NCBI GenBank assembly: GCA_000004985.1
Contig: GG738921.1
From: Naegleria gruberi
Taxonomy: Eukaryota
Reading direction: 5' to 3' (one strand)
Length of the DNA: 64,000 bases
Numbering within the stretch: position 1 is the stretch's first letter; every line of letters starts with the position of its first letter. A program made the translations under genes and the position numbers. Below, in pieces: positions 26,901 to 48,716 of this stretch. Under the pieces are notes generated by a model, which saw only the letters and a program-made list of their open reading frames with translations, was not told the DNA's origin and did not search any database.

Positions 26901-29900
26901 TTATGTTTGTAAAAAGTTCAATAGTGATTCCAAAGATTCTGCAACTTGAATAAATTCTGGTCTTTGATTAGGTTCATTATTCCAACATTCTTTCATAATT
27001 TCGATATAATCCGAAAGAGATAGTTCTAATTTTGAAATTCCATATTTATCAATTTCCTTTTTTGAAATATTATTTTCGATCCATGCTTGATCTGTAGTAA
27101 TAATTCTTGGTCTATGTCCTTTGATGACTTCCATCAATATGGAAAATACTGTATTGGTGTCTGACAATTCATCCGAAAATGGGACCATTTCGTATAATAA
27201 TTCCCACAAAATAATTCCAAAAGAGTAAACATCAATTTTAGTAGTAGGACCTCTATGATGATTAGAAAGTAACTCCTATTAGAAATTATATTTAAATTAT
27301 TCAGAAATGTTATCAAAAACTTACAGGTGCCTTTTAAAATAGTTTAAATTAGAATTCGAATAAAACTTACAATATCTTTACATCAAAATTAAGAAACTGA
27401 TCTAATTTCGTATTACTTACATAATAGAGTTCCAACATTTGTGGTCATTGTTGCAGAATTCCCATTAACAATCTTACTTAATCCAAAATCTCCCACTTTT
27501 GCATTCATATTCTTGTCGAGTAGAATATTTGCACATTTCAAATCTCTGTGAATTATCTTGTTTGGCCTAATTGAATGTAAATAGACCATTCCTTTACATA
27601 CATCATTCAGAATATTTAATTTTGTAACGTAACTCAATTTCTTTTTTCCTATTTTTGATTCGTAAATTGCTCCATCTAAGGCACCATTCGAAAGATATTC
27701 CACCTTAATATTCAATTCATTAAGTACATCAATTGTATTCAAATACTTACAATCATATATTTTGATTCAGTGGATAGAGAAATTCCATAACAACTAACAA
27801 TTGAAGGATGTCGTAGGGAGCTCATCAATAAGGCCTCCCTTTCAAATTCTTCATCATCAGTGTCTGTCTTGAATTGCTTAATGGCAACATCTGTTTTGTT
27901 CCAAAGTCCTTTATAAACCACACCCGACGCTCCTTCACCAATCTTTTTCACGATAGTAATATCTGAAATTGGAATAATGTACCTTTCAGGAGTTTCATTA
28001 TTCAAACTATTCTCAAGTAAGGGCAAGTTTTCGATACCATTTCCAAATACAAAGTATTTGTTTTTGAATTGATCTTCAATTCTCTTCTCCGCCTTTTCTT
28101 GTTTTCTCAATTTGAACAACTTTTTCATTACATAAACGATTACAAAAATTGTAAAAGAAAAAATGATGGTGAGTGAGATAGTTCCCAAAACTGCTGATGG
28201 AATAATTATCTCAAATGGAATGGATTGACAGTAATAATACTTGCCTCCTCCCAACACCAATGAAAATCCTGCTGGACATTTCATTACTTCCACATTAACA
28301 AACGAGGTAATAACATCCAAGTCTGTAATTGAAAATCTCAACTCAAAATGGTCAGAATTGAAATCCTTATCAACGAGTAGGTATTGTAAATTGTTGAGCA
28401 TGATATATCCTTCTCCGACTTGATAATCCTGCTTTTGTAGAATGATATTCTTCACAGAAGAAACTACCAAAAGTGGGGAGTCACTAGAAAGCTTTGAAGT
28501 GCTTTGATTATATTGATCATAAATGAATAATTTGAAATCAAGTGGTTGGCCAGGATACACTTGAATGGATTTGCCTTCTGCAACTCTGAATTGACCATCC
28601 TGTCCTCTAAATTCAATTCTTTGGCTCACCAATTCTGAACCGATATCATTTCCATAATAGTAAGCTCTGTTTTCACCAATCATTCGATATTTCGTATTTG
28701 GATTTAAGGAACTCGATGTGGATGATTTGTAGATACAACCTCCAACTTGAAATGCAATATTATCCTGACAATAACTGTCAGTTGTGGCAATACCACTTAA
28801 TAGATTGAGGAGATAGATGGCTCCTCCCTTCTTTGCCTCATTTCCAATAAATGAACAGTTTGAGAGAGTTAGGGAATTACTGATCTCAATTCTAATGGCA
28901 CCTCCAAATTCTGCAACATTATTCGAAAAGAAACAATTGAAAACTATTAAGCTATTGCCATTGTAAAAAAGAGGTGAACCACCCATATTGTTTCTGAACT
29001 GACACGTCCTTACCATTGAAGCTGTTTGCTCAGATGTCATGATTGAAACAAAAGAGGAATCTTTCAGAACTCTATTGGAAATGAATTTTGATTCGTCTAT
29101 TACTATTGGAGCTACAATTGTATTAATATCCCAATAGATATCCTTAATAGATAGTATTGTTCCAGTATTGTTATTAAATGTACAATTAAATACTTGAACA
29201 GTTTTACCTTTTTGAATGGAAATCAAATTGGCAAATATATTGTTAGTTACATTCCAGTTTCGAATAGAGATTTCGGTAGAACCAATCAAGCTCAGATAGG
29301 ATTCGGATATATCACCAATAACTCGATCAATAATACTAATTCCATCCAAAACAACTTGAAAAACTATCATAATCTGAATAGTTGGAATGGAGCTAGCCTC
29401 TGTAATATTCAACACGTTTCCAGCATTGAAAGCACATAAAGAACTAGCTGTCCAATGACAATTGTTAATTTTCACAGTTCCAAAAAAATCAATATTTAGA
29501 ATTGCATTCAATAATTTAGAATTATCTATTTGAATAGACTCTGTCTTACTCAATCTTACTTTCGTTTCAGAAATGGTCGATTCAAATACTCGAAATGTCT
29601 CCACCATTGCATTTTTCAATCCAAAGTTGTTGAAATTTGACTGATTAATAAGTAAATTTTTCACATTTAATTCACTCATTACCAACAAATCACTATGGCA
29701 TTGATCAAAACTGAGAATTTCCAATTTCCTATCCAAACTCAATGCTCTACCAACTCCTCCATTCACAAAATGAAATCTCTCAATTACACTCTGCCTATTA
29801 ACGAGCCACTCACATCCAGGATATATAAAACCATTAGTATCCATTCCAATCCAACTCAATTCAAATCTATTGGTATATTCGGAAAAGTCAAACAATTGTC

Positions 29901-30279
29901 CACATTCATAACTTCCCTTCATCATTATTTTCATTTGAAATTTGAATAATTTTGATGAATTGCCAATAGGAAACATGGAATATAATTCATCGTTAGCAGC
30001 AGTGATGACTTGATGAAATACTTGACATGGTAGATTCACATCAGTGCATGTATTATTCTTCGGTTGTTGTGATTGGTTGGAGTCAATGTAATAGGTACGT
30101 TCAATACTCTGCTGTTGTGCTCCGACAAGAAGAACAACTAGGTGATGTATTAAAATTAATGACACGATGAAGATTTGTGCAATTGTTCGAGTAGACAAAT
30201 GGTGTGGCAGTAGTTGTGGTAGTTTCATTCTTTTTTGTTGGAAGATATTGTCCAAGGTTTTGTGTGTTACTGTTATCAT
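26901..30279 (-). CDS. Receptor-like protein kinase. It has a signal/TM N-terminus, a large ectodomain with parallel beta-helix-type GGAI/FxxN repeats, a single TM and a TKL-type kinase. Proposed structure is complement(join(26901..27275,27325..27330,27371..27375,27421..27703,27751..30279)), 1065 aa.
   Basis: Ectodomain repeats read FNCFFSNNVAEFGGAIRIE and SFIGNEAKKGGAIYLLN. TM reads IIIPSAVLGTISLTIIFSFTIFVIVYVM. Kinase motifs are IGEGASGVVYKG..VAIKQFK, HRDLKCANILLD, VGDFGLSK, GTLL-YI-AP-ELLSNH and DVYSFGIILWEL. The exon lengths sum to 3198 nt. Confidence 0.65.
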
Positions 30280-30617
30280 GGAGATGATTACAACTCTTGG
30301 GGAGGCATTTCAATAAAAATTGGAATGTTGTTGGATATTGTTCCAGAATTTCAAACACTGGTTAAAGCTCTCAGGTTGAATTCAACTGTTCGATTATTCT
30401 CGTATGGGACAAAAGCATTCATTACCAAATATATAAATTAATATCTTGATCCCAAATTCATGGCACAATCACTCTTGCATCAACGCTTTTACCTATGTCA
30501 TGACATTGTCTACTTTCAAATGATTGTAGTGTTGGTACTTTACTTCATTTCTTTGGAACGTATAGGAAGGTAAGAGAGGAAATTGTTTTTAATAATGTTG
30601 TTGCCTTAATTGAAAGA

Positions 30618-31262
30618 CTAACCTTGGTGTTCATTCTGTTCTCCATCTTGGGTTTCCTCTTCATCATTCCCTTCATCGATGAGAAAAGCAGACCGTTTGA
30701 GTGAGTGGAGTGCCTCACAGGTTTCAATCATATTATAGTAGGATTCGTCTTGTGTAATTTCTTCATCCCAATGAGGGAAAGTTCTACATTGTTGAGGTCG
30801 TACTGGATAAATTGAACAAGAATAAGTCACTTGTCCATCTTCTTGTGTTTGAGGTTTCAGAAATATGCATTGAACTCGTTTGTGAAAGGCTAAGGAAGGC
30901 TTATATTTGATAGAGATTGAGGTTTCATCTGATTGTTTAAGGGTTGACAAGGTATAGTTCTGAATAAATTCATTCGGAGATATTTTCAAATAATTTGATA
31001 TTTGTTTCACATTATTCTCATCTAGATAAATACGTATAGATCCAAAACCGGTACAACACTTTCCACATTGTGTACACCCTTTGAAATTTTCAGTAATTAA
31101 TTTCTTTCGTTCCTCCAATTTGTTTTTATTCCTATTGCATGATAAGTGGGTAGAGAAAAATTGTTTATTAAATTCCTTCCTCATTCCGACAGAACATGTT
31201 ATATTGTGTTTCAGCATTGCAGTCAAAATTGAAGCTTTCCTTGAGAGTTGTTGTGTTTGCAT
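30618..31262 (-). CDS. UPF0153/YkgJ-type CxxCxxCC putative zinc- or iron-chelating domain protein. It may have a 3' intron, as the stop context is QG*.
   Basis: It reads ...GCTQCGKCCTGFGSIRIYL...CIFL...YSCSIYPVRPQQCRTFP, matching the C-x2-C-G-x-CC ... C ... C-R-x-FP arrangement of that family. Confidence 0.5.
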   Translation of the reverse strand: MQTQQLSRKASILTAMLKHNITCSVGMRKEFNKQFFSTHLSCNRNKNKLEERKKLITENFKGCTQCGKCCTGFGSIRIYLDENNVKQISNYLKISPNEFIQNYTLSTLKQSDETSISIKYKPSLAFHKRVQCIFLKPQTQEDGQVTYSCSIYPVRPQQCRTFPHWDEEITQDESYYNMIETCEALHSLKRSAFLIDEGNDEEETQDGEQNEHQG

Positions 31263-31265
31263 TTT

Positions 31266-33654
31266 TTATTCTTCTGTTGGTTTTCGTTCAATTTTTGAAA
31301 GTAATTGATTGCAAATGTCTAACAGCTCCTTATTTTCCTTTTCTTTTGCTTTTAATCGATTTTCAACCTGCACTCTTTTCTCCTCTTCTTTCTTTAACTT
31401 TTCTTCAAGTGTAGATGATGGAGTTGTGGTTGAGGATGACGAGGAAATTAGAGTTTTCAATGCTTCTATTTCATTTGTCTTATCATAAATCTTTGCCTTT
31501 AGCTTTTGATTTTCTTCGTAAAATACGTGTAAAGATTGTTGAAGCTCGTCATTTCTAACTTTGAATTCTTCCTTTTCCTCCTTGATTTTTCGTGTTTCAG
31601 TTTCCTGAGAGATTATTTTGGATTGGAAATCATTTGATTCTTTAACCAGTTTTTCGTTTGTAAATTCTAGGAACTTGATTCTGTCTTCGAGGGCTTTGAT
31701 CTGAGTCTTTGGAATGGTGGAGAGCTTTTTGATTTTATCATTTAGGGAGACTATTTGTTCGTCCTTGTCTTCCTTCTCTTTCTTCATCAAATTCATCTCT
31801 TGTTCCAATGACGTTATCTTACTCTCGAGCTGATGTTTAGTTGTGGATAACTCTTTGAGTTTGGTATTAGCTCCATTAAGTTGGTCCTCTGCATGTTCCT
31901 TGAGCTTATTATATTTGGTCTCGTAAACTTTACAATCTTTCATGCTGGCATGAATCTTTTCTTTCAGTACTTGCTCGTTTTGTTTAAATTTTTCATTTAC
32001 AATTTTAGCCTCGTCGTATCTACCTTTTAATTCCTTAAAGGATGACTCTATTTTTGAGTAGTCTATCAGTAACTGGGTATATTGTACCTTGATACTCTCC
32101 TTTTCCTTGTCATCTCCATTCTTTAAACTCAAATTTTTAAACTCCTTTTCATAATTTTGAACAAATGCTTCCAGCTCTCGTCTCTTTCTAACTTCAATGT
32201 TTAACCTTTGTTCCATGTCATCGTACTCTGCTGTTAGAATAGCCATTTCCTTTAGTGTTTGTTCCACACTTTCTTGCTTAATTTTCTGCACTTGTTCTTC
32301 TGTATATATCACTATTTCTGGTGGTGGTGAGGTAGACATATCCTTCCTCTCAACAATTGTGGTCTTCTCCTCAACCTTAAAGTCTGTCAAAAAATATGGA
32401 TCCAAAGGAGAGAATTGAGGTGGTTGGTTACACTGTTTGTCTTTTGGTGTAGATTGCTCAATCTCCTCAAAGTTTCTGGTTTCAGTTTTTACAATTAACT
32501 TTGGTGTTGCAGGTCTATCATGGAGCTCAATCTTTGGAAGATCGAAAGAGGTGTTGACTTCTGGTTCTTGAATTTTGATCATTTCGGATAAACTTGAAGG
32601 TTGGTCAGAAATTGATGACGTAGAAGTAGTTGAGGAAATTGATGAATTTGATACATTTGTTTTAATATCCTCTCCTTTTTCCAATAGATATTCCAAATTT
32701 GTTATTGCTGTTTTGATATCTTCATTTTCTTCTCTTTTCAGTTTCTTTAAACATTTGATGATGGTGTCTCGGTTGAAAATATCTGCCCTTTGTTTTTGAA
32801 GATTGTAAACTGAAACTAAGGCTGAGCGTTTTGTTTCAATATTTCCTTGATAGGAAACGTCATCCAAATACTCCTCAAACAATCCATATGATACAATTCC
32901 GATAGATCCGTTGACATTTTGAATTTCCTCAAGACAACCTCTGCAAGATGATGATATCGAGTCAATTATTGAGAAGGTTCCTTTCAATAGAGGTTTTAAC
33001 AATATAGCGTTCAATACCTCAAAATCCTCATCCAACAACCTAACAATCGATACAATTACATCACACGAAGCCTTGACGATTGAAGACCTTAAATCCGAAA
33101 GCTGCAAAACTCATTATACAACACAACATTATCCTATAACTTACCATAATCGATAATGGTTCTTGAATAGATATGGCAATTTCAAGTGCTTTTTTCTTTG
33201 ATATTGTTCCTGAAGTGAGTACATCATCCAACTCTTGCAGACAATCTAACTTTGTTGACCAATGTGTTTCCAGTGATTGGAGACTCGTTATGCAACCCCT
33301 CTCAGTCTCTGTTATATTTTCTGGTTCAATATCTATCACTCTGCTCGAATTTATATTTTGATGATTATCAAAGGCTCCGAAGCTAGCTCCCTCAATTAAA
33401 GGACTCTCCTAAAACAATTCCTTAAATACACCAAAAACATAACTTCAACTTACCGATGATTCATCCAGTGGAGAATGATCAAAAAACGACTGTGCAGTTG
33501 CACTCTGATTTCTACTTATTACAAGTAGTCTCGATTTCAATTCCTCTGATGATGAGGGCGTAGTCATGCTGACTGAGGAGGACGTTATTTTTTTGATTAA
33601 ATAATTTCGCGCCCAATTTATTGTATGTTGTTCATATTCCTGGCCGCTGTTCAT
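31266..33654 (-). CDS. Large protein with an N-terminal HEAT/ARM-like region followed by about 450 aa of coiled coil. It is multi-exon: about 33445..33654, about 33130..33340 and 31266..33107.
   Basis: The long heptad-rich region reads ...EQVLKEKIHASMKDCKVYETKYNKLKEHAEDQLNGANTKLKELSTTKHQLESKITSLEQEMNLMKKEKEDKDEQIVSLNDKIKKL... The upstream ORFs are in compatible orientation with gtaagt donors. Confidence 0.45.
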
Positions 33655-34425
33655 TTACATCAATAAGATCCATCACACAACCTCAAAAGAAGAAGTGAGA
33701 AAGGACATTGGGTTGTGATGGAGTATATTGCTTAGTAAAAGGCTTGAATTTTGATTCAACTTTCAAAATAGTAAACCTTAATGAAAATATATTTTGTAAC
33801 AACAAACCACTTGCTCACAATGAGATTGATAATAAAATCATTTCCAATAAATTAGTATTATTGCAACAAATTGACCAATTAAAGCCCATAAAAAGAAAGG
33901 GCAACATTGATAGAGAAGAACTTGAAATGTTTATTTTAATCGACCATCTGCCTTCTTCAAGAAAGGTTTCCGATTACAGTGTGGTTGACCTCATTAAAAT
34001 TTTATAAACGAAACCTCTTTGGAATTTCCCTCTTCTTTTCCCGTATGTCAGTGCACACAGTTTGACCGTTTATCGTTCGTTGTATCTTTAAAATAAAAAT
34101 TGGCGAAAGCAATCATCACTTTATATTGACAAGGAACGAGTGATTCACTAGTTGACGACAATTTGGTCAGTTCATGAACAATACTCAACAACAAAATAGC
34201 ACAAACTTTTCATTTAGTTTTATAGTGAGAGCATATTGTCAATATATTCAATTCCTCCCTCTTCAACCTTCTCAATCATCATACGCTAAGCTATGAATCA
34301 CACTTTTTCAAATAATAATATTAATAATACAAGAAGAAAATTCATCAATCATCACAATAATAGTGTAGTATTACTTTAAATTAATACTAAGAGAAAAACA
34401 AAAAACAGACATACAGAGAGAGAGA

Positions 34426-37915: not shown

Positions 37916-40636
37916 ATGTCGAAAAATCCTTCACAACAACAACAACAACCAGAACACACAATTCAACTCAGTGATAAAGTTGATCAGGTTCTTGAGGAGG
38001 TGCTTCCACAGAGAGATCCTTTCGATTCGAGTTTCTTTGATCCTGTTCATTATATAAATCTTCGTTTCCCTAACGAACAAGCCTTGAATGAAGGTCTTGA
38101 ATCATCCATCATAAAAGTCAAGAAGAAGATTCAACGTGTCGATGAAGATATCCTTGTTGCTGTTCGTAAACAAAGCTCTTCTGGTGTTCAGGCAAGGAGA
38201 GACTTGGAGGAAGCAAGAGAAACCATTCAAAGTTTGTTTAAAAAGATTAACGAAATTAAGTCTAAAGCTGAACAATCCGAACAAATGGTACAAAACATCA
38301 CAAAGGATATTAAATCACTTGACTATGGTAAGAGAAATCTTACTGTTACAATGACTACATTGAAGAGACTTCACATGTTGGTGTCGGCTGTGGATAAGTT
38401 AACACTCTACACACAAAAGAAACAATACAAACAAGTTGCGGAATTATTGGAAGCTGTCAATGAGTTGTTGGCTAATTTTGAAAAGTACAAATCTAGCATT
38501 CCTAAAGTTCAAAATTTATTTATGAGATTTGAAAGTGTTAAAAAGTCACTTCGTGATCAATTGTTCCAAGATTTTAAGAGTTTGGACGCTCACAAAAATT
38601 CAGGTAGAGAAAACGTACAACAACTGTTATCAGAGGCTTGTTTGGCTGTGGATGCTCTTGGAGATTCTATTAGAACTGAACTTATTTCTCAATTTGTTAA
38701 AAATAGAGCATTGCATGTCTATGATATGACATTCAGAGAAGGAAAAGAAGAAAGTAAATTGGAAAGAATTGCAGACAGATACAAATGGCTCATGAAAGTT
38801 TTGAAATCCTATCAAGAACAATTTGGAGATATCTTCCCTAGTTTTTGGTCAGTTCCACAAGAAATTACTGTTGAATTCAGTTTAATGACTAGACAAGCTA
38901 TTGTTCAAATGCTCCAAAGAGGAAACAATGTTTCTGGTAAAACTTTATATACAGTAATCTTGTCAACAATCAAGTTTGAACGTGACATGCAAGAGAGATT
39001 TTATGATCCAGACGAATCTGAAATTTTGGTAGATCTTCAACAACAAAAGAGACAACTTGATCAAGAAGAAAAGCTCTTAAAAGAGGCAGGTCAAAAATTA
39101 CAAGAGGGTAGTCCTGAAGCCAATGACAATCTGAAAAAACAATTCAAGATTATGATCAAACGTAGAGAACTTGAAAAGGTTGAAAATGATATTACTAAAA
39201 CATCAACTCTTGATTCCTTATTGAAAGAGGGTGATGGATCAGCTAGTGGCATTAAAGAAGTTGAAAAGGCAAAGAAGAAACCAAAGAATAAGTATAACTT
39301 TATTGGTTTTATTAGTAGTTGTTTCGAGGAACATATGAGTGTATATATTGAATATGAAGAAGAGTCAATGAGAGAAACTCTTTCAAATATTATCCAAAAA
39401 GAAACTTGGGACATGAACAGCGAATACAGCAGTAGTCAAGATTTGTTCATGTACATTGTGGAATCTATGAAGTCATGCAGTGCTTTATCTAAAAAGAAGA
39501 CCCTCTATGACTTGGTTGAGAAGGTATTCAAAAAGTATCTTGCTGAGTATGCTGGCATTCTTACTAACAAATTACCAAAAATTCAATCTATTGCTTCTTT
39601 AAATTCCAACGCTCCAAATAATGCTGCATCAGGAAATTCTAGTGTTTCGTCACCTGTTGCTGGTGGTTCTGGTGCCTCCTCATTCATTCGTAGTTTGGGT
39701 ATGTCAAATATTTTACCAACAGAAACCTTCTCCGATAAGAAGATTAAGCTTACTGATAGAGAAGAAATGGTTGTATTTTACATTATTAATAGTGCTGACT
39801 ACTGTCAACAAAACATTGAAATGGTACAAGATGAATTGAAAGAAACTCTTCAAGAACCATATTGTGACCAAGTTGACCTTTCTGAAGAACAAGGTCAATT
39901 CTACCATGTTTTGAAGAGTGGTATTGAGGTTCTTGTACATAACTTGATGAATGTCATGGAAAAACAATTTTCTGAAATGATTTCTGTTGCATGGGGTAGT
40001 ATGGATACTGTCGGAGATCAATCTCCTTTCATTTCTGTTATCATGCAAACTCTCAAAGATGCTATACCATTCTTGGCTAAGGCACTTCCTATTACTCACT
40101 TTAAATTCTTCTGTGACAATTTTGTATTGTCATTTATGGCAAACTATATCAACAATATTTACAAGTGTAAGAAGATTTCACTAATGGGAGCTCAACAATT
40201 GTTGGTCAACTCTAGGTCACTTGTAAAATATAGTATTAGAGAATTAATTAATTTGGGTGATAATACAAGATTTGATGAGGATGATTTGGCAAGTTTTGCA
40301 AGGAAAGTTGATGGAAAGGCCCAAAAAATTGAATGTATTTTACGTACCTTATCTGCTCCAAATGATTTGATTGCTGAGACTTATATTAGTCTTGCTCCAA
40401 ACGACCATTCTTTACCTGAACTCACAAAGATTTTGGAATTGAAAGAATTACAAAAGAATGAAAAACAACAAATTCTTGAAGGTTATCAAAAAGAATTAAG
40501 GAAGAGACAAGGTGGAGATGCCAAAGATGCACCTCAAGCTAGTGCTATTGGTACAGCAACAAAGAAAATGGAACAAGCAACAAGTGCTATCATGACTTCA
40601 AGTAAGAGCTTTATCAAAAAGTTTACTAAGGATTAA
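37916..40636 (+). CDS. vps53: Vps53 subunit of the GARP tethering complex (906 aa, single exon).
   Basis: The N-terminus FDPVHYINLRFPNEQALNEGLESSIIKVKKKIQRVDEDILVAVRKQ...IKSKAEQSEQMVQNITKDIKSLDYGKRNLTVTMTTLKRLHMLV is collinear with Vps53 family N-termini. Confidence 0.75.
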   Translation: MSKNPSQQQQQPEHTIQLSDKVDQVLEEVLPQRDPFDSSFFDPVHYINLRFPNEQALNEGLESSIIKVKKKIQRVDEDILVAVRKQSSSGVQARRDLEEARETIQSLFKKINEIKSKAEQSEQMVQNITKDIKSLDYGKRNLTVTMTTLKRLHMLVSAVDKLTLYTQKKQYKQVAELLEAVNELLANFEKYKSSIPKVQNLFMRFESVKKSLRDQLFQDFKSLDAHKNSGRENVQQLLSEACLAVDALGDSIRTELISQFVKNRALHVYDMTFREGKEESKLERIADRYKWLMKVLKSYQEQFGDIFPSFWSVPQEITVEFSLMTRQAIVQMLQRGNNVSGKTLYTVILSTIKFERDMQERFYDPDESEILVDLQQQKRQLDQEEKLLKEAGQKLQEGSPEANDNLKKQFKIMIKRRELEKVENDITKTSTLDSLLKEGDGSASGIKEVEKAKKKPKNKYNFIGFISSCFEEHMSVYIEYEEESMRETLSNIIQKETWDMNSEYSSSQDLFMYIVESMKSCSALSKKKTLYDLVEKVFKKYLAEYAGILTNKLPKIQSIASLNSNAPNNAASGNSSVSSPVAGGSGASSFIRSLGMSNILPTETFSDKKIKLTDREEMVVFYIINSADYCQQNIEMVQDELKETLQEPYCDQVDLSEEQGQFYHVLKSGIEVLVHNLMNVMEKQFSEMISVAWGSMDTVGDQSPFISVIMQTLKDAIPFLAKALPITHFKFFCDNFVLSFMANYINNIYKCKKISLMGAQQLLVNSRSLVKYSIRELINLGDNTRFDEDDLASFARKVDGKAQKIECILRTLSAPNDLIAETYISLAPNDHSLPELTKILELKELQKNEKQQILEGYQKELRKRQGGDAKDAPQASAIGTATKKMEQATSAIMTSSKSFIKKFTKD

Positions 40637-40667
40637 ACGTTTCTGTTAATATTATATTACAATTTCT

Positions 40668-41761
40668 CTATTTGTTTAACCAAGCATGTGGAGGTATTTT
40701 TCCTGATTCACGAGCATTCACATAGAGTTCCCAAGCTTTTTCAGGATTATAGTTGGCCTCTGATAGACAAATAACAGTAAACTCTCTCGTGAGACCAGAT
40801 AAGGATGAAAACTTTTGTATCAGTTCCTCTTCTGGAGAAATGTTATGGTGTTGATGATTCTGGTGGTGAATCGATGGCTGTTGTTGTGGCTGTGGACTGG
40901 AATAATCTGAATCATGATAATTCTTAGATGAATAGATACTGTTAAGGCGTTCTTCTGCCTCTTTGGATGAAAAACTTAGGTTAGAATTGTTATACGAACT
41001 ATTATACGAAATATTCGAATTATAGTATTCCTCTTCTTCCTCTTGTTCCTCTTCATGATATTCAGGTGAAGAATGTGAAACATTTTTGGAACTGCTACTA
41101 CTAGAAGGTTTAGAAGACTTAGCATGTTTTTCCTCCTGCTTTTTCTTGGATTCTCTTTTCACTTCATTTGCAAGATATAGCAATACATAATTCCTCATCT
41201 TGTCAACTTCCTCCCATTCATGACTCTTCTCTGGAATTAATTCCAATAACCTCTGAATACTATCAATATATCGATACGTATCCCTCAAAGTAAAATGATT
41301 TTGATGAGCCCACTTATTTCTACAATTCCTAGCTTCAAATAATAAATTCCTATCCGTATTAGTCAACCATCTATTTCCCGCAGCAAACGCATCATTCCAA
41401 TGTCGTTGTATAACTCCAATAATATTCTGTGTATCCCAAGCACTTGATGCTGATAAATTAACATTAAATCTCGGAGCAGATGAAGATGATCCTCTTCCAA
41501 ATGTTGTAGCACTCATATAATCACCTCCCTGATCTTGATTACTTGCTGCTTTTTCTACAATTTCCTTCCAGCCTTCTCCATACTCTTCGGACAAGGCTGT
41601 TTTCACCAGAGGTTCATAAATTCTATTAAAATACTTTAAACACCTTCCGATAATATCGTGAATCTAAAATGTAACTTCCGTTTTGATCAAAAAGAGTCTT
41701 TAATATTACATCATACCTTTTGTTGATCGAGAGTTTCATCCTTCTTGTCGTGTTTTCCCAT
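40668..41761 (-). CDS. Small protein with a HEPN/KEN-like RNxxxH motif region and a C-terminal TAP-C (NXF-type UBA-like) domain: complement(join(40668..about 41663,about 41717..41761)).
   Basis: Exon 1 MGKHDKKDETLDQQK|gtatga has a 53-nt intron ending cattttag. The body carries ...NLLFEARNCRNKWAHQNHFTL.... The C-terminal EELIQKFSSLSGLTREFTVICLSEANYNPEKAWELYVNARESGKIPPHAWLNK* closely parallels the NXF1 TAP-C tail (FS..SGM..EWS.KCL..N.W......F.....G.IP..AF.K*). Confidence 0.55.
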
Positions 41762-41834
41762 TTTTTTTAAAAATTTAAATTTAAAAATAGTATTTTAACT
41801 ATTTAATAATTATTGAAAAGATTACAATATTAAA

Positions 41835-44125
41835 TCAATAAAAAAAAAATTCTAATACTGTTTCACCATATTCGTTAAGCATTTCCAATTTAAAATCAGA
41901 ATCATTCTTTAACAAATCATCTGCAAAATATAATGCATACTCATCATATTGAGCTACCTCTTTCATGAATGACTTGTCTATTTTGAATGACACATCAATA
42001 TATTCCAATACTAAAACGTTTTGAATGACTGCTTCAATTACAATTTCCTTATCCATCTGTAATGATGAATCAAGAGAAAATAATACGAATCCATCATTTT
42101 GCAATGCAATCTTTACAATTTCTCTATCTTTTTGGAATTTTGGATCAACGTATTCCAATGCTGCTCCATCAATTTCAACCAATTGTAAAACAAAATCTCT
42201 ATCTTTCTTCCAAGATTCGTCTACATATGTCAATGCATGCACATTATTGCCTACTGCTGCTTTGATAATGTCTGGATCATTTTTGAAATCTTCACTCACA
42301 TATTCCAATGCTGTTCCCTTCTGTTTAACTGTTTCTAAAATGAATTTCTTATCATTCCTTATTAATTCATCGGCTTGTTGAATAGATGGTCGAAACTTCT
42401 TAATAACCTCTAATACAAGCTCCTTATCATTTTTATAATAATTTGGAGCTCTTGGTAAGATGGAAGCAGAATATAACTCCTCAATAAAATCATTCTGTGC
42501 AAACTCATTGATTGACTTCACTAGTGTATCTCTTGAAGTTTCGAATATTTCCTCAATGTTTTCAGTGAAATCGTTCTCACAGAAATCTAGATTGGATAGT
42601 GCTATTTGAAGAGCTTCCTCAACATGACTAAATTGTTTCATGATAAATTCTCTATTCCTTATTTTTTTCAATTCAATTCCTAGTTGTTCAATAACTTTTA
42701 AATTATTTTCAATATCATTCTTCAAAGATTCAACACAAGCCTGAAGCGATAATTTAAATCTTTCAACTGTCAATTGAATAATTTGTTCATCATGTTTAAG
42801 AGATGAATCTATTTCGAAATAGGCATTAGCATTCTGTTGAATAGCTGTTTCGATTATTTCTCTATCCTTCTTAAATGTAGCATTATTAACATAGGCAAGA
42901 GACGTTCCATCCTCTCTGACTGCTTCTAATACTATTTCTCTATCTATTTCATTAATATATTTCAATAAATATCCTTTCCTGTTAACAACTTGCATTATGA
43001 ATTGTCTATCCATTCTCAACAATTCATTATTTTCAAATGGATTGCATTTAAAATAAACATCACTAAATGAAAGGCATGCCAATATAATATCTCTATTATG
43101 AGTAAAATTATCATTAATACCTATTGGATATGATTTAAAAAAATCTGATGATAATCCATTTGTCTTGAATATTCTACTCAATATTTCACTTGCATTTGGC
43201 CTCATTTCATAATCGTCATTCAACATGGAAATTAGGATTTTGAAAAATTCAGTCCAACCTTCAATATCATCATCCAAATTAGCTTCCTTAATTATTTGTG
43301 AAATATTATTATTTTCCATGTGAATGATTAAATATTGATATATATCATCTAAATGATGTTGAATATCTAGGGATTCATTTTTTGGAAATATTACATTTAA
43401 TAATGATCTACCTAAACTCCAAATATCACTCCTGAAAGATATTAAACCTTGATTTAGGCATTCAGGTGCAATAAATCCAAAAGTCCCACATATGAAAGAA
43501 GAGGAAGAAGAACTCTCTGATAAATTTGATGGGTTTGAATCAACATCTTGAACTTTTGTAACAGTGACACCAATTCTATCAGAAGGTATTGGACATGCAT
43601 TCTCTCTAACACTTCCCAAATCTCCAATAATTGTCTCTATATGGAGAATATTATCCTCTTTTTTGGTAATTATTGTTTCTTGGAGGAATAAATTGTCTGG
43701 TTTGATATCACAATGAATTAAATTGTTATCATGAAGAGATTTTAGTCCATGACTGGTTTTAATTAGAATTTGAAGTAAATTTCCCAAATAGAGTTTAGGT
43801 TTCAAATTTCTATAATTAGACAAATTAATACCTCTATATTTGGAAATAATAATAGCTTCATTTCCATTCTTTTCAGTGATTTCATAAGTTAATATATTTG
43901 CATTGTGCATTTGTTTAGCTTTCATATTATGTTCAATTTCTCCATAATTATAAATTTAATTTTAACAACATAATGACCATTTAAATTTACATCGGTTCCA
44001 ATATATTTAGATTTGAATACAATAATACCGTCATTTCTTGCAAGTTTTAATGGTTCTTCAATTTGTAGTGCCAAGTGTTGGATGGTGATCTCCGATTTTG
44101 TGTGAATGGTTGAAATTAAACTCAT
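41835..44125 (-). CDS. Protein kinase (N-terminal catalytic domain) followed by at least eight DUF4116 repeats. There is a frame break in the alpha-C region near 43925-43990.
   Basis: Kinase motifs are GIIVFKSKYIG...HYVVKIK, LIHCDIKPDNLFL, IGDLGS, ICGTFGFIAPE and DIWSLGRSLL. Repeats match the DUF4116 pattern, for example FKNDPDIIKAAVGNNVHALTYVDESWKKDRDFVLQLVEIDGAALEYVDPKFQKDREIVKIAL. Confidence 0.65.
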
Positions 44126-44272
44126 TTCCTCCTCTTATTTTTTTTTAAAGTAATTTTAATTTTTGTAATTCCAAAACGTGATTTAGTTTACGACTATTCG
44201 AAAGATTACAAAATTTACTTCATGAGATTAAAAACAATATATAAATGAGAATTTGTGAAAATTAAGGTTATT

Positions 44273-45346
44273 TTAATTTAAGGTTGTGTATTGTTTCTTA
44301 CGATAAAACATGTAAAGTAATCCAATAATTGAGACAGAGAAACAAATAATCACGAAAAGACCACCTATGGTTGCTCCAACGATAATTCCAATATCTGAAC
44401 TGTCATCCTTTTTTGGATTAAATGGAGAAGGTGATTGACCATTGACAGTAAAATTTTGAGCATTTGAAACAGAGAATTCAGTACATGCAGAATTTCTGTT
44501 CAATTTTCCAAATAAGATATTCTTCAATTTTTGATCATTGCACAAATTGCACTTGTCATTAGAATTGACACATGACTTGACATTTGAATTAATAAGGGAA
44601 TAGTTTGAGAAAATTTCAAATTCACCAATAACTAGGGACTGAGAACCATTACACAAAGGTCCTTCAATAGTTTCAATCATCATTTCAAAATTTCCCAATT
44701 TAAATCTCGAAAGTGTTTTCGTCTCTGAAAATTTAACATAAAATTTGTGTTGCATGTCTTCAGTGACGAACCAATCCTTCTTTTCTACAAATTCATCACA
44801 GAAAGTAGTAGGATATCTTTCACTTTGTTCAAATTCTAATTCAATAAATGAATTCTTCAAGGTTAATTGAGTGCAATTGTTAGTCAATTGAGTTTGATAA
44901 GCATTTTGAGATGTTCCCGCTGTTCTGAAGAATTTTTGCCACTTTGAGCAAGCCATGGCTCTGTTGGACTCATCTGTGGAGGAAAACTTGCCAAAATATT
45001 CATAACATGGAGTAAGTGATGCACTGCCCAATCTAATACTTTCGTCGAAAATAGTATAGCTAACTGAGAACTCAATCACAAGATCTCTTGTATTTCCTTC
45101 ATAATTAAAATCAACAACTTGTACATGTGCATACTGTTCACTGAAAAACATGTGCATTTGATTGAAATTGCTAGGATTGGTCGAGTATTTAAAACCGTTC
45201 ATGGTTGTTGTGAAATTCTTTCCAATTAAAAAATCTCTTGTGATGCTGGTTGGACATTCATCACACAAGATGACATTCAATAGACAACAACAGGATATGA
45301 CCAATAGGATGGACAACAACAGGAAGTGGAGATTGACAGTTCGCAT
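44273..45346 (-). CDS. Type I membrane glycoprotein: signal peptide, Cys- and N-glycosylation-rich ectodomain, C-terminal TM plus a short tail.
   Basis: Signal reads MRTVNLHFLLLSILLVISCCCLL. There are many NxS/T sites. TM reads IGIIVGATIGGLFVIICFSVSIIGLLYMFY, followed by RKKQYTTLN*. The true ATG is at 45346. Confidence 0.5.
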   Translation of the reverse strand: MRTVNLHFLLLSILLVISCCCLLNVILCDECPTSITRDFLIGKNFTTTMNGFKYSTNPSNFNQMHMFFSEQYAHVQVVDFNYEGNTRDLVIEFSVSYTIFDESIRLGSASLTPCYEYFGKFSSTDESNRAMACSKWQKFFRTAGTSQNAYQTQLTNNCTQLTLKNSFIELEFEQSERYPTTFCDEFVEKKDWFVTEDMQHKFYVKFSETKTLSRFKLGNFEMMIETIEGPLCNGSQSLVIGEFEIFSNYSLINSNVKSCVNSNDKCNLCNDQKLKNILFGKLNRNSACTEFSVSNAQNFTVNGQSPSPFNPKKDDSSDIGIIVGATIGGLFVIICFSVSIIGLLYMFYRKKQYTTLN

Positions 45347-45693
45347 TATTGAATTATTTTTTAACAATTTGAAATAATTTGAGATTCGATTAGAATTAAA
45401 CTATTTAAGATAATTATCTTGGTGGATGTTATATGGAGTTTTGCGCATGTGGAATTATATTGGAATCTATTTGGCATTCAAGAAAAGTGTGTAACGGAGT
45501 TAAATTACAGTGACCATACTTATTGAGTATGAGATACAATGTTCCCATAGCTGAGGATTCGTGTATTAATATATCCATTACTGTTCGTTCTTATTCTCTC
45601 ACTTCTTTTATTAATAAACTACTAGAAATGTACATTTCTATTATTGAACCGATGTGAATGAATAAACAAAGAAATATTTCATAGTGAATGTAT

Positions 45694-45765
45694 TCCCGTG
45701 TAGTCCAATGGCTAGGATACCTGGCTTTCACCCAGGAGGTCCGGGTTCAATTCCCGGCATGGGAG
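45694..45765 (+). tRNA. tRNA-Glu (anticodon UUC), 72 nt.
   Basis: Acceptor stem tcccgtg/catggga. Anticodon stem cctgg/ccagg with loop ctTTCac. T-arm ccggg-ttcaatt-cccgg. Confidence 0.8.
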
Positions 45766-45840
45766 GATAATTTTACATTTTCAAATGCGGAATAGTTTGG
45801 TTATCATCTCCGGATTTATTTCTGAAACACTGCAAAAAAA

Positions 45841-48716
45841 ATGGCAAACTCCTTTTCTTTCATCTTGTTTGCCATCTTGGTTTTGAATTGGGCCTTGTTA
45901 GCCAATTGTAATTTGACTTTTTCACAACAAACATTCAACACTCTCCTCAACTCAACCCAAACTTCAACTCTATCACTGACAATGTACATGGGAGGTGGAA
46001 CAACCATCAAAAACAGTAACAACAGCACATGTGGAATGTCTGTGGATAATCCATGTACAAACTTTAATCAATTATTATTAACTTTTAATTGGACACTCTT
46101 TAGTCAATTTGAGAATTTCACAAAAGCAACATCGGCAGGTGAAAGAAACGTTCACTTGAAGATACTGATACTTCCAGATGGCAGTATTTTCTGTCCTATC
46201 AATCCAGTTAATTTATCTCCTTCAATGAATTATCATTTAGAATTTACGAAACTAGTCGAATCATCAACAATAACACCCATCTTGACCTGCCTCAACACAC
46301 AAGATGGAAATGGCATTTCCATTCCTNNNNNNNNNNNNNNNNNNNNNNNNNNNNNNNNNNNNNNNNNNNNNNNNNNNNNNNNNNNNNNNNNNNNNNNNNN
46401 NNNNNNNNNNNNNNNNNNNNNNNNNNNNNNNNNNNNNNNNNNNNNNNNNNNNNNNNNNNNNNNNNNNNNNNNNNNNNNNNNNNNNNNNNNNNNNNNNNNN
46501 NNNNNNNNNNNNNNNNNNNNNNNNNNNNNNNNNNNNNNNNNNNNNNNNNNNNNNNNNNNNNNNNNNNNNNNNNNNNNNNNNNNNNNNNNNNNNNNNNNNN
46601 NNNNNNNNNNNNNNNNNNNNNNNNNNNNNNNNNNNNNNNNNNNNNNNNNNNNNNNNNNNNNNNNNNNNNNNNNNNNNNNNNNNNNNNNNNNNNNNNNNNN
46701 NNNNNNNNNNNNNNNNNNNNNNNNNNNNNNNNNNNNNNNNNNNNNNNNNNNNNNNNNNNNNNNNNNNNNNNNNNNNNNNNNNNNNNNNNNNNNNNNNNNN
46801 NNNNNNNNNNNNNNNNNNNNNNNNNNNNNNNNNNNNNNNNNNNNNNNNNNNNNNNNNNNNNNNNNNNNNNNNNNNNNNNNNNNNNNNNNNNNNNNNNNNN
46901 NNNNNNNNNNNNNNNNNNNNNNNNNNNNNNNNNNNNNNNNNNNNNNNNNNNNNNNNNNNNNNNNNNNNNNNNNNNNNNNNNNNNNNNNNNNNNNNNNNNN
47001 NNNNNNNNNNNNNNNNNNNNNNNNNNNNNNNNNNNNNNNNNNNNNNNNNNNNNNNNNNNNNNNNNNNNNNNNNNNNNNNNNNNNNNNNNNNNNNNNNNNN
47101 NNNNNNNNNNNNNNNNNNNNNNNNNNNNNNNNNNNNNNNNNNNNNNNNNNNNNNNNNNNNNNNNNNNNNNNNNNNNNNNNNNNNNNNNNNNNNNNNNNNN
47201 NNNNNNNNNNNNNNNNNNNNNNNNNNNNNNNNNNNNNNNNNNNNNNNNNNNNNNNNNNNNNNNNNNNNNNNNNNNNNNNNNNNNNNNNNNNNNNNNNNNN
47301 NNNNNNNNNNNNNNNNNNNNNNNNNNNNNNNNNNNNNNNNNNNNNNNNNNNNNNNNNNNNNNNNNNNNNNNNNNNNNNNNNNNNNNNNNNNNNNNNNNNN
47401 NNNNNNNNNNNNNNNNNNNNNNNNNNNNNNNNNNNNNNNNNNNNNNNNNNNNNNNNNNNNNNNNNNNNNNNNNNNNNNNNNNNNNNNNNNNNNNNNNNNN
47501 NNNNNNNNNNNNNNNNNNNNTTGGAATAGCATTAGGTTTTGGAATATTCTTTGTGTGGAAAATTGTAAAGAAATTGAGAAAACTGAAAAGTAAGGAGAAG
47601 GCAGAGAAACAAATTGAAGAAAAACTTTTAGACAAGCGACTTATTTTCAATATGAATGACGAGGAGGATGAATATTATGAGGGCTCCACACCAAATATTG
47701 AAAGAAGCAAATCATCTTATGGGAAAGTATCTGAAAAGGAGTTAGTTTCTTCATTGATTGACAGTGAAAAGAAGAAATCAAAACATTCTTTCAGTTTTTC
47801 ATCCTCTTACATTATTCCAATTGAAGACATATCAATTATTAAAAAGATTGGAGAAGGAGGCGCAGCTAATGTATATTATGGTACATGGACCAATATTAAA
47901 GTGGCTATCAAGTCACTCAAGATTGACAGTTTTGATGATGATTTTGAGAATGAAGCAGCCATCCTCAGTTTAATTAGACATCCAAACATTCTGACATTCT
48001 ATGGAGTATGTTTGACTGATAAGAGTCGATATATTGTGACTGAATATATGGAAAATGGCTCTCTAGACAGGTATATATTTTTGAATAAGAACAGAGCATT
48101 GAATATTGACCTATTCAAATCAAATATTGGAATTTTGTGTGGAATTGTGGATGGTATGCAATATTTACACTCTCTTAAACCTTCAATTATTCACAGAGAT
48201 TTGAAATCGAGTAATATATTGTTGGACGAAAGAAATACTCCAAAAGTTTCTGATTTTGGTCTTGTTAAAGTATTGGGAAACAATACAATCAGTCAAATTA
48301 CAAAAGGAATTGGTACAGTGTATTATTTAGCTCCAGAAACATTCATTGCTGAACATCAAATTGAAAATAAGGAAGAGGCAACCAAGTTGGACATTTACAG
48401 TTTTGCAATAATCATGTGGGAATTATTCTTTCGAATGAGTCCTTATCATCATGTGAAAAATCCATTCAAAGTGCCTCAAATGGTTGTCAATGGAGAAAGA
48501 CCTCAAATTCCCTTCAATATTGAAAATGATACGGAAATCAAAGAATGGCTTTCAATTCAAGCATTGGAAATTTCATCGTCTGACAATTCTTTCATTAATG
48601 GTATTAAGAAATACTTCTCACTCATTCTCCAATGTTGGAATCAAAATCCATTACAAAGACCTACATTCCTGACAATTAGAAGAGAATTGGATGAGATTTA
48701 CAATCTAATCGGTTGA
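45841..48716 (+). CDS. Receptor-like protein kinase, a paralog of the 26901-30279 gene. Its ectodomain is mostly lost in the 1.2-kb assembly gap.
   Basis: Signal reads MANSFSFILFAILVLNWALLANC. After the gap, TM reads GIALGFGIFFVWKIV. Kinase motifs are IGEGGAANVYYGTWTNIKVAIKSLK, HRDLKSSNILLDE, VSDFGLVKV, GTVYYLAPE and DIYSFAIIMWELF. Confidence 0.65.
46327..47520. other. Assembly gap (run of N). There are smaller gaps at 716-755 and 10926-10975.
   Basis: Uninterrupted n characters. ORFs translated as X-runs across them are artefacts. Confidence 1.

What the first reader, a model, noticed from the sequence alone, without database searches (positions are those of the whole stretch)
26901..48716. 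Kinase-rich neighbourhood: two inverted paralogous receptor kinases with beta-helix GGAI/FxxN-repeat ectodomains, plus a kinase-DUF4116 gene between them
The 26901-30279 ectodomain is built from repeats containing GGAI and FxxN in the spacing of right-handed parallel beta-helix (Pmp/PbH1-type) repeats. This is an adhesin-like architecture uncommon for eukaryotic receptor kinases. The paralog at 45841-48716 has the same signal/TM/kinase layout, but its ectodomain falls in the 1.2-kb gap. Because it cannot be compared, it is a priority for gap closure. A third kinase at 41835-44125 carries DUF4116 repeats, a domain of unknown function.
Basis: partly seen in the sequence, partly recalled or inferred. 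Interest (0 to 1): 0.5.

Follow-up and report, generated by a model that had tools for sequence, protein, structure and literature searches.

The report
Naegleria receptor kinases with beta-helix ectodomain
This stretch of the Naegleria gruberi genome encodes membrane-spanning protein kinases whose outer part folds as a bacterial-adhesin-like beta-helix, an unusual and unstudied sensor design, but the genes are already in public databases and their clustering looks incidental.

Summary
The window is Naegleria gruberi NEG-M, not a dictyostelid. Gene A (26901-30228, minus; NAEGRDRAFT_75112) is a type I membrane protein. It has a signal peptide, an N-terminal cap, a right-handed parallel beta-helix, a stalk, one TM helix, a conserved juxtamembrane motif and an intact TKL-like kinase.

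Gene B (45841-48716, plus) shares the layout, the juxtamembrane motif and a kinase insert. Its kinase is only 39% identical to A, whereas A's closest paralogue (71%) lies on another scaffold. The 1194-N gap hides B's ectodomain.

Gene C has a kinase plus 10 DUF4116 repeats. Here it is frame-disrupted in the N-lobe, and it may itself be a receptor kinase spliced to the upstream TM-protein ORF.

The same architecture is seen in one N. fowleri protein. I found no paper describing it. The three kinases do not form a functional cluster. This is a moderately interesting, lineage-restricted variant of receptor kinases, with ligand and function unknown.

The parts
26901..30228 (-). Gene A (NAEGRDRAFT_75112 / XP_002669923.1), corrected model of 1049 aa from Met at 30228 (the longest ORF starts at 30279). 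Exons: 30228-27748, 27703-27421, 27375-27371, 27330-27325, 27275-26901.
   Evidence: The deposited 947-aa model P0033 uses the same micro-exons but starts at MMKGSY and lacks the signal peptide. A second strain's contig, L001, is 98.2% identical with the ORF and splice sites intact.
30118..30228 (-). Signal peptide of gene A (MKLPQLLPHHLSTRTIAQIFIVSLILIHHLVVLLVGA).
   Evidence: Read directly from the sequence. The start is conserved in the second strain's protein P0001. No dedicated signal-peptide predictor was run.
29989..30099 (-). N-terminal cap motif (YYIDSN...NNTC..V.LPC..F.QVI.AA), shared by family members and weakly by gene B.
   Evidence: Invariant D49, N51, P67, C68, Q73 and A77 in family alignment A2. 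Gene B aligns here.
28636..29793 (-). Right-handed parallel beta-helix (residues 163-548 of the 1066-aa ORF numbering).
28720..29190 (-). Pmp-type rungs carrying FxxN and GGA(I)-like motifs (residues 364-520).
   Evidence: Motif positions and shuffle test. Pfam Chlam_PMP 22.0 bits against 20.6, and Beta_helix 20.7 against 25.9. TIGR01376 16 against 15. PDB sequence hit to Rhombotarget A 9cdu, E 1.3e-4.
28210..28704 (-). Membrane-proximal stalk (YGN.IA., VYPGQP, CP.G.S...C motifs). Fold unresolved.
   Evidence: Among about 290 retrieved proteins it is conserved in only three genes: gene A (in three sequence versions), NAEGRDRAFT_68759 and N. fowleri FDP41_004621. AF2 pLDDT is below 40 here.
28075..28209 (-). 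Transmembrane helix (28126-28209) and conserved juxtamembrane motif KKLFKLRKQEKAEKRIE (28075-28125).
   Evidence: Sequence. The motif is invariant across the family and present in gene B.
26901..27960 (-). Kinase domain of gene A, split by four introns of 44, 45, 40 and 49 nt. It includes a 5-nt micro-exon (27371-27375) and a 6-nt micro-exon (27325-27330) that together encode the Y-I-A-P of the APE motif.
   Evidence: Pfam PK_Tyr_Ser-Thr E 8.5e-53. GxGxxG, VAIK, HRDLKCAN, DFG and APE are all present. Best PDB matches are EGFR, CTR1, a Src-Abl ancestral tyrosine kinase, TAK1, BMX, TNNI3K and ABL.
45841..46326 (+). Gene B 5' part: signal peptide (MANSFSFILFAILVLNWALLANC), the cap motif and the first 162 residues of the ectodomain.
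   Evidence: No Pfam hit.
46327..47520 (.). Assembly gap (1194 N) hiding most of gene B's ectodomain.
47521..48716 (+). Gene B 3' part: end of the TM helix, juxtamembrane motif KKLRKLKSKEKAEKQIE, and an uninterrupted intact kinase domain.
   Evidence: Pfam E 3.8e-50. 37% identical to gene A across TM, juxtamembrane and kinase, and 39% over the kinase alone.
41835..43925 (-). Gene C main ORF (NAEGRDRAFT_75119): kinase from subdomain III onward plus 10 DUF4116 repeats.
   Evidence: Pfam DUF4116 E 7.2e-92 and Pkinase E 1.6e-17, covering profile positions 54-260 only. 100% identical to P0015.
43922..44125 (-). Gene C upstream ORF encoding the putative kinase N-lobe (…GIIVFKSKY…HYVVKI…). It is out of frame with the main ORF in this assembly.
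   Evidence: A second N. gruberi copy, P0017, joins the two in frame through 31 extra residues.
44302..45346 (-). ORF for a signal peptide, a Cys-containing ectodomain and a TM helix. It is possibly exon 1 of gene C through a 168-nt GTAAGA…AG intron at 44134-44301.
   Evidence: In-frame canonical splice sites. The deposited partial model P0017 makes exactly this fusion, 'MFYQEEMSLIS'. No Pfam domain.

Best explanation
Genes A and B encode members of a Naegleria-restricted family of type I single-pass receptor-like protein kinases.

Shown:
- One continuous exon of gene A encodes a signal peptide, an N-terminal cap, a right-handed parallel beta-helix of about 390 residues whose last six or so rungs carry Pmp-type FxxN/GGA(I) motifs, a family-specific stalk, one TM helix, a conserved basic/acidic juxtamembrane motif and the start of a kinase.
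- The kinase has every catalytic motif. It is of the TKL type (HRDLKxxN), so it is probably Ser/Thr or dual-specific.

Inferred:
- The beta-helix is displayed on the cell surface. It binds an extended ligand along its groove or flank. By analogy with other PbH1/Pmp beta-helices, that ligand is most likely a polysaccharide or a glycosylated surface, such as bacterial prey, substratum or another cell.
- Ligand-driven clustering or dimerisation brings the cytoplasmic kinases together for trans-phosphorylation. This couples surface contact to intracellular signalling (motility, phagocytosis, differentiation).

Gene C is an unrelated kinase fused to a DUF4116 alpha-solenoid. It lies between A and B by coincidence, and the three genes are not a functional unit.
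For: - Organism and gene identity.
- Single-ORF architecture, so no gene-fusion artefact.
- Kinase intact.
- Pmp repeat above curated cut-offs in two libraries. It is also above cut-off in the N. fowleri homologue (24.3 bits).
- Every sequence homologue of the ectodomain outside Naegleria is a Pmp/beta-helix repeat protein.
- GGA(I,L,V)/FxxN repeats are known to map to beta-helix coils in chlamydial Pmps: PMC11166332, PMC10715098.
- Family members with the same full architecture: NAEGRDRAFT_68759 (E 9e-43 over the whole ectodomain) and N. fowleri FDP41_004621.
- The gene is intact in a second strain, with 17 synonymous and 21 non-synonymous codon differences.
- There are 10 N-glycosylation sequons and 15 Cys in the ectodomain.
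Against: - No expression, localisation, ligand or activity data exist.
- The signal peptide and TM helix were judged by eye, not with a predictor.
- Pmp HMM scores exceed the cut-offs only marginally. Pfam Beta_helix is below its cut-off (20.7 against 25.9).
- Foldseek E-values were not significant (>=0.014), although the fold class was consistent.
- The stalk and the first ~160 residues are poorly modelled.
- The carbohydrate-ligand idea rests only on analogy.
- Gene B's ectodomain is unseen.
Confidence: 0.72

Rival explanations
1. The proteins act mainly as adhesion or phagocytosis receptors, analogous to the Entamoeba histolytica transmembrane kinase PATMK and to Trichomonas and Chlamydia Pmp adhesins. 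The beta-helix sticks to prey or host surfaces, and the kinase triggers engulfment. This refines the best explanation rather than excluding it.
For: - Structural neighbours include the bona fide adhesins PfbA and Vag8.
- Pmp proteins mediate adherence in Chlamydia and Trichomonas (PMC2997323; bioRxiv 10.1101/454884).
- A Naegleria 'omics study reports that adhesion factors are largely unidentified (bioRxiv 10.1101/2020.01.16.908186).
Against: There are no functional data. The top structural neighbours are equally enzymes (tailspike depolymerases, lyases, epimerases). N. gruberi is non-pathogenic.
Confidence: 0.3
2. The beta-helix ectodomain is catalytic, acting as a polysaccharide lyase, hydrolase or epimerase like most of its structural neighbours. 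The protein would then be a surface enzyme whose kinase reports substrate turnover.
Against: Sequence identity to these enzymes is only 8-14%. No enzyme-family HMM hit was found. Sequence relatives are non-catalytic Pmp-repeat proteins.
Confidence: 0.07
3. The three kinases form a functionally linked or co-regulated 'kinase island' created by local duplication.
For: Three kinases lie within 22 kb. A and B share a juxtamembrane motif and a C-lobe insert.
Against: - A and B share only 39% kinase identity and 68.6% DNA identity over 140 nt, whereas A is 71% identical to a gene on another scaffold.
- Kinase C is not detectably similar to kinase A.
- Unrelated genes and a tRNA are interspersed.
- Taking roughly 250-300 kinases in 41 Mb (my recollection of the genome paper, not checked here), about one such 22-kb triple is expected by chance genome-wide.
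Confidence: 0.05
4. Gene A is a decaying or mis-assembled gene, and the micro-exon model is an annotation artefact.
For: Two tandem micro-exons of 5 and 6 nt are extreme. No transcript evidence was available to me.
Against: - Only this splicing restores the frame and the APE…DVYSFG motifs.
- All donors are GTAAGT and all acceptors are AG.
- The deposited model uses the same exons.
- Both micro-exons and all splice sites are unchanged in a second strain, and the only two differences in that segment fall inside an intron.
Confidence: 0.04

Closest known systems
Chlamydial polymorphic membrane proteins (Pmp) and other Pmp-repeat (PF02415/TIGR01376) surface proteins, including Trichomonas vaginalis Pmp-like proteins
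   Same: FxxN and GGA(I/L/V) motifs occur once per rung of a right-handed parallel beta-helix. The domain is extracellular, and an adhesin-type function is documented for Chlamydia and Trichomonas members.
   Different: There is no autotransporter beta-barrel. Only about 6 motif-bearing rungs and 2 exact GGAI motifs are present, against dozens in Pmps. The protein is anchored by a eukaryotic type I TM helix and fused to a cytoplasmic kinase.
Entamoeba histolytica transmembrane kinases (TMKs, e.g. PATMK) and other protist receptor-like TKL kinases
   Same: Single-pass type I topology, a TKL-like kinase, a lineage-specific expansion in an amoeboid phagotroph, and likely roles in surface sensing or phagocytosis.
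   Different: TMK ectodomains are CXXC-rich repeats (my own knowledge). Gene A's ectodomain has no CxxC motif and is a beta-helix. The two families arose independently, in Amoebozoa and Heterolobosea.
EGFR / insulin-receptor L domains
   Same: A right-handed beta-helical ligand-binding module in the ectodomain of a single-pass receptor kinase (my own knowledge).
   Different: There is no Recep_L_domain or furin-like hit. L domains are short, at about 5-6 turns, and are LRR-like. Those kinases are true tyrosine kinases.
Beta-helix surface adhesins PfbA (S. pneumoniae) and Vag8 (Bordetella), and phage tailspikes
   Different: Sequence identity is only 10-13%. They are bacterial or viral and have no kinase.
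Naegleria DUF4116-kinase proteins (P0016, P0020, P0021, P0024, P0026), compared with gene C
   Same: A kinase combined with DUF4116 repeats in the same species.
   Different: Those paralogues have DUF4116 at the N-terminus and the kinase at the C-terminus, with no TM helix. Gene C has the kinase first and may carry an upstream ectodomain and TM exon.

Membership tests
Pmp-repeat proteins (Pfam PF02415 Chlam_PMP / TIGR01376) | HMM score above the curated cut-off | tested here: met
   PF02415 scores 22.0 bits against 20.6. TIGR01376 scores 16 against 15. Both are marginal. The N. fowleri homologue scores 24.3. Paralogue 68759 shows no hit at E<=0.01.
Pmp-repeat proteins (Pfam PF02415 Chlam_PMP / TIGR01376) | Repeated FxxN and GGA(I/L/V) tetrapeptides at one-rung spacing | tested here: met
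   There are five FxxN motifs 23-31 residues apart, two exact GGAI and two degenerate GG motifs. The composite motif is absent from 5000 shuffles. The count is low compared with chlamydial Pmps.
Chlamydial Pmp autotransporters (type V secretion) | C-terminal autotransporter beta-barrel domain | tested here: not met
   No PF03797 hit. The C-terminus is a TM helix plus a kinase.
Right-handed parallel beta-helix (pectin-lyase-like fold) | Three-stranded rungs forming a right-handed solenoid that superposes on solved members | tested here: met
Single-pass type I receptor-like protein kinases | N-terminal signal peptide, one TM helix and a cytoplasmic kinase in one polypeptide | tested here: met
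   All are encoded in one ORF/exon. The hydrophobic N-terminus and a 28-residue TM helix followed by KKLFKLRK were judged by inspection, not with a predictor.
Single-pass type I receptor-like protein kinases | Catalytically competent kinase (G-loop, VAIK Lys, alphaC Glu, HRD, DFG, APE) | tested here: met
   All motifs are present in A and B. Pfam E 8.5e-53 and 3.8e-50. Activity itself is not testable here.
Single-pass type I receptor-like protein kinases | Ligand-regulated kinase activity at the plasma membrane | not testable with these tools
   Requires experiments.
TKL kinase group | HRDLKxxN catalytic loop and closest similarity to TKL families | tested here: inconclusive
   The catalytic loop reads HRDLKCAN. 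The best PDB sequence matches mix TKLs (CTR1, TAK1, TNNI3K) with tyrosine kinases (EGFR, a Src-Abl ancestral kinase, BMX, ABL, ITK). No kinome-wide phylogeny was done.
Entamoeba TMK family | CXXC-rich ectodomain repeats | tested here: not met
   No CxxC motifs in the gene A ectodomain.
DUF4116 (PF13475) repeat proteins (gene C) | Multiple ~49-residue DUF4116 repeats above the cut-off | tested here: met
   301 bits against 24.9, 10 repeats.
Gene A/B family (Naegleria beta-helix receptor kinases): membership of gene B | Homologous beta-helix ectodomain | tested here: inconclusive
   Only 162 residues lie before the gap. The cap motif aligns at the equivalent position (E 4e-4; hhalign E 0.0017, probability 15%). 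The juxtamembrane motif and the kinase insert are shared.

The most novel reading that the evidence does not exclude
Naegleria (Heterolobosea) independently invented a family of pattern-recognition-type receptor kinases that use a Pmp/PbH1 beta-helix to read bacterial or cell-surface polysaccharides and to trigger feeding, adhesion or differentiation. A neighbouring third gene adds another new receptor architecture: an unknown Cys-containing ectodomain, a TM helix, a kinase and a DUF4116 solenoid. This would be an uncharacterised route to receptor-kinase signalling in a deep-branching eukaryote, with a homologue in the pathogen N. fowleri.
Probability: 0.25. Interest if true: 0.6.

Novelty: new variant of a known kind. 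Interest (0 to 1): 0.35.

Why it matters
Receptor kinases arose repeatedly in eukaryotes, by fusing a TKL or TK kinase to whatever extracellular module a lineage had available. A Pmp-type beta-helix ectodomain is a module not described for receptor kinases in the literature I could search.

It occurs in Heterolobosea, where surface receptors and adhesion factors are almost unknown, including in the lethal pathogen N. fowleri. If these proteins sense prey or host glycans, they would be entry points for studying feeding, adhesion and differentiation in Naegleria.

There are practical consequences too. The deposited model of gene A lacks its signal peptide, so automated pipelines miss the receptor topology. 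Gene C may be mis-split. Gene B needs gap closure.

Tried and rejected
- **Word-indexed homologue searches** with the ectodomain and with a three-member family profile returned only the near-identical strain copy plus generic Pmp proteins. They did not even return the family members used in the query, so family size could not be measured this way.
- **The exhaustive representative search** found two further kinase-bearing members among the top 150 hits, but the list is dominated by long Pmp proteins.
- **The first AF2 model** of the whole ectodomain was poor (pLDDT 53). The stalk fold stays unresolved.
- **Closing the gene B gap** through environmental orthologues failed. Two JGI metagenome scans, one with the N-terminal part and one with the kinase part, found nothing.
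- **Contig look-ups** for P0017 and P0015 found no record. The second-copy DNA of gene C and the public gene calls around it could therefore not be inspected.
- **The Naegleria genome paper** is not held. The other literature searches found no description of these proteins.
- **An alternative intron to repair the gene C frameshift** was considered and rejected, because no GT…AG pair restores the frame.
- **A recent inverted duplication of A and B** was rejected.
- **A dictyostelid origin** was rejected.

Full report
**Source and gene identities**

The window is about 33% G+C and contains spliced eukaryotic genes. The kinase/DUF4116 ORF is 100% identical to the 'predicted protein [Naegleria gruberi]' NAEGRDRAFT_75119, which sits on a 207-kb scaffold.

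Gene A belongs to the 90% cluster that contains NAEGRDRAFT_75112 / XP_002669923.1. This is the heterolobosean N. gruberi NEG-M.

**Checking the observation**

- phmmer of the A and C kinase domains against all six-frame ORF fragments finds exactly three kinase genes in the 64 kb, at the coordinates given.
- The N-run is 46327-47520.
- Gene C has 10 DUF4116 repeats (E 7e-92) after a kinase.
- Genes A (minus strand) and B (plus strand) are divergently oriented, about 15.5 kb apart.

**Gene A model**

The long ORF 27739-30279 encodes everything from the N-terminus to kinase subdomain V. The rest of the kinase needs four short introns of 44, 45, 40 and 49 nt. These include two tandem micro-exons: ATATT (27375-27371) and GCACCT (27330-27325). 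All donors are GTAAGT.

Only this splicing restores …GTLLYIAPELL…DVYSFG…. The deposited 947-aa model uses it too.

That deposited model starts at an internal Met (MMKGSY) and so lacks the signal peptide and the cap. A 98.2%-identical contig from an ENA metagenome (L001) starts its ORF at the equivalent of Met-30228. It keeps every splice site and both micro-exons, and shows 17 synonymous and 21 non-synonymous codon differences. The gene is therefore intact and conserved in a second strain.

**Gene A architecture (1066-aa ORF numbering)**

| Feature | Residues |
|---|---|
| Signal peptide | 18-54 |
| Cap motif YYID…NNTC…LPC…F.QVI.AA | 61-97 |
| Beta-helix | about 163-548 |
| Stalk | 526-690 |
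| TM helix | 691-718 |
| Juxtamembrane motif KKLFKLRKQEKAEKRIE | 719-735 |
| Kinase | 774-1057 |

The kinase has an intact G-loop, VAIK, HRDLKCAN, DFG and APE. Its best PDB sequence matches are EGFR, CTR1, a Src-Abl ancestral tyrosine kinase, TAK1, BMX, TNNI3K and ABL. Taken with the HRDLKxxN loop, this points to a TKL-type kinase, though no phylogeny was done.

**Is the ectodomain a Pmp-type beta-helix?**

Sequence evidence:
- Pfam Chlam_PMP scores 22.0 bits (cut-off 20.6). Beta_helix scores 20.7, below its cut-off of 25.9.
- TIGR01376 scores 16 against 15.
- FxxN sits at 368, 399, 428, 451 and 477. GGAI sits at 459 and 485, with GGSP at 433 and GGCI at 513.
- Two GGA[ILV] motifs are expected in 0.04% of shuffles, and the composite motif in none of 5000.
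- A family profile hits one solved protein, Rhombotarget A (9cdu, E 1.3e-4).
- Every non-Naegleria homologue is a Pmp/beta-helix repeat protein.

Structural evidence:
- The first AF2 model of the whole ectodomain was poor overall (pLDDT 53), but it reached pLDDT 70-94 in the rung regions.
- A second model of residues 163-548, built with a 39-sequence alignment, reached pLDDT 78.9 and pTM 0.77, with a regular three-strand periodicity.
- Foldseek E-values were not significant, although the hits were almost all beta-helices.

The caveat is that canonical Pmp motifs mark only about six rungs. The N-terminal two-thirds of the helix is degenerate.

**The family**

The exhaustive search found P0034, whose cluster contains NAEGRDRAFT_68759. 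It matches with E 9e-43 and 31% identity over the entire ectodomain. The search also found N. fowleri FDP41_004621 (P0176). Both have the same arrangement of cap, helix, stalk, TM helix, juxtamembrane motif and kinase.

Among about 290 retrieved proteins, the stalk and the juxtamembrane motif occur in only three genes: gene A (in three sequence versions), NAEGRDRAFT_68759 and N. fowleri FDP41_004621. No other Pmp-like hit carries a kinase.

**Gene B**

Before the gap, gene B has a signal peptide and a weak but positionally equivalent match to the cap (E 4e-4; hhalign E 0.0017). After the gap it has the end of a TM helix, the motif KKLRKLKSKEKAEKQIE and an intact, intron-free kinase.

Both A and B have an unusually long insert of about 25 residues between the 'RP.I' and 'CW' motifs of the C-lobe. 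This is read from the alignment.

Kinase identities are:

| Pair | Kinase identity |
|---|---|
| A and 68759 | 71% |
| B and 68759 | 46% |
| A and B | 39% |

DNA similarity between A and B is limited to 140 nt at 68.6%. A and B are old family members, not a recent inverted duplication. Whether B's ectodomain is a beta-helix remains open. If the nominal gap size is right, B's ectodomain would be about 560 residues, comparable with A's roughly 635.

**Gene C**

The main ORF (41835-43925) covers the kinase only from Pfam profile position 54 onward. The N-lobe-like sequence (…GIIVFKSKY…HYVVKI) lies in ORF 43922-44125, in another frame. No GT…AG pair repairs this.

A second N. gruberi entry, P0017 (partial, on a 4.9-kb scaffold), is 99% identical. 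It joins the two parts in frame through 31 extra residues. At that point the window has just 2 nt. The window copy is therefore either a frame-disrupted allele or an assembly error.

P0017 also splices the upstream ORF (44302-45346: signal peptide, Cys-containing ectodomain, TM helix) to the kinase. The window has the same in-frame GTAAGA…AG sites, giving a 168-nt intron at 44134-44301. Gene C may thus be a third receptor kinase with the order ectodomain, TM helix, kinase, DUF4116. I put this at roughly 45%. Against it, the unspliced ORF ends 8 codons after the donor site, and the intron would be much longer than gene A's.

Other N. gruberi kinase/DUF4116 proteins have the opposite domain order and no TM helix. 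DUF4116 has been modelled as an alpha-solenoid (PMC8078820).

**The neighbourhood**

Between the kinases lie unrelated genes:
- a CxxCxxCC-domain gene;
- a TACC-like coiled-coil gene;
- Vps53;
- a HEPN_Swt1/TAP_C gene;
- tRNA-Glu.

Kinase C shows no phmmer similarity to kinase A at E<=0.01. From my recollection, the 41-Mb genome holds a few hundred kinases. On that basis, about one 22-kb window with three kinases is expected by chance. I see no evidence of a functional cluster.

**Mechanism**

The shown parts are the domain order, the fold, the intact catalytic motifs and the conservation. The inferred parts are surface display, binding of an extended (probably glycan) ligand along the helix, and activation by clustering, with outputs in feeding, adhesion or differentiation.

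The adhesion/phagocytosis version resembles Entamoeba PATMK and the Trichomonas and Chlamydia Pmp adhesins (PMC2997323, bioRxiv 10.1101/454884). It is a plausible specialisation of the main idea. A catalytic ectodomain is unlikely.

**Novelty**

The sequences have been public since the 2010 genome, auto-annotated as 'predicted protein' or 'non-specific serine/threonine protein kinase'. I found no paper describing a Pmp/beta-helix receptor kinase in Naegleria or elsewhere.

I rate it a new variant of a known kind: a single-pass receptor-like TKL kinase with an unusual ectodomain. It is of moderate interest.

Noticed in passing
window 27371-27375 and 27325-27330 (minus strand): Two tandem micro-exons of 5 nt (ATATT) and 6 nt (GCACCT), separated by a 40-nt intron and flanked by introns of 45 and 49 nt, encode the Y-I-A-P of the kinase APE motif in gene A. 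They are conserved with all splice sites in a second strain. Paralogue 68759's deposited model reads 'LLYIKKAPELL' at the same place, which suggests a similar structure there.
   Followed up: partly
window 29920-30228 (minus strand): The deposited model of NAEGRDRAFT_75112 (947 aa) starts at an internal Met. It omits about 100 N-terminal residues, including the signal peptide and the cap, which hides the receptor topology.
   Followed up: yes
window 43900-44000 (minus strand): Gene C's kinase N-lobe is out of frame with the rest. A second N. gruberi copy (P0017, on a 4.9-kb scaffold) has 31 extra residues (INNGDYDHDYHDSNNVGGDDDGGEENANDLS) where the window has 2 nt. This is either an allelic ~91-nt deletion (null allele) or an assembly error.
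   Followed up: partly
window 44134-45346 (minus strand): An ORF for a signal peptide, a Cys-containing ectodomain of unknown family and a TM helix can be spliced in frame to gene C through a 168-nt GTAAGA…AG intron, as in the deposited partial model P0017. That would make gene C a third receptor kinase with a C-terminal DUF4116 solenoid.
   Followed up: partly
window 45693-45766 (+): A tRNA-Glu(TTC) gene lies only about 75 nt upstream of gene B's start codon.
   Followed up: no
window 30618-33107 (minus strand): The TACC-like coiled-coil ORF (31266-33107) and the CxxCxxCC-domain ORF (30618-31262) are on the same strand and only 3 nt apart. This is either extremely tight gene packing or a single mis-split gene.
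   Followed up: no
L001 (ENA ERZ929261, run ERR1078381, PRJEB11402): A metagenome assembly contains a contig 98.2% identical to gene A, so a close N. gruberi relative was present in that sample. Such data might also hold the sequence missing in the gene B gap, but this collection could not be scanned by DNA.
   Followed up: partly
window 26990-27110 (gene A) and 48500-48640 (gene B): Both kinases carry an insert of about 25 residues between the 'RP.I' and 'CW' motifs of the C-lobe. It is a shared derived feature of the family.
   Followed up: no
window 40668-41606 (minus strand): This gene combines a Swt1-like HEPN domain (E 5e-16) with a C-terminal TAP_C/UBA-like domain (E 2e-11). It lies directly downstream of Vps53 (37916-40636).
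   Followed up: no
window 51217-53716 (minus strand): Two adjacent ORFs (523 and 320 aa) overlap by 35 nt (52754-52788) and look leucine-rich and repetitive. They were not analysed.
   Followed up: no
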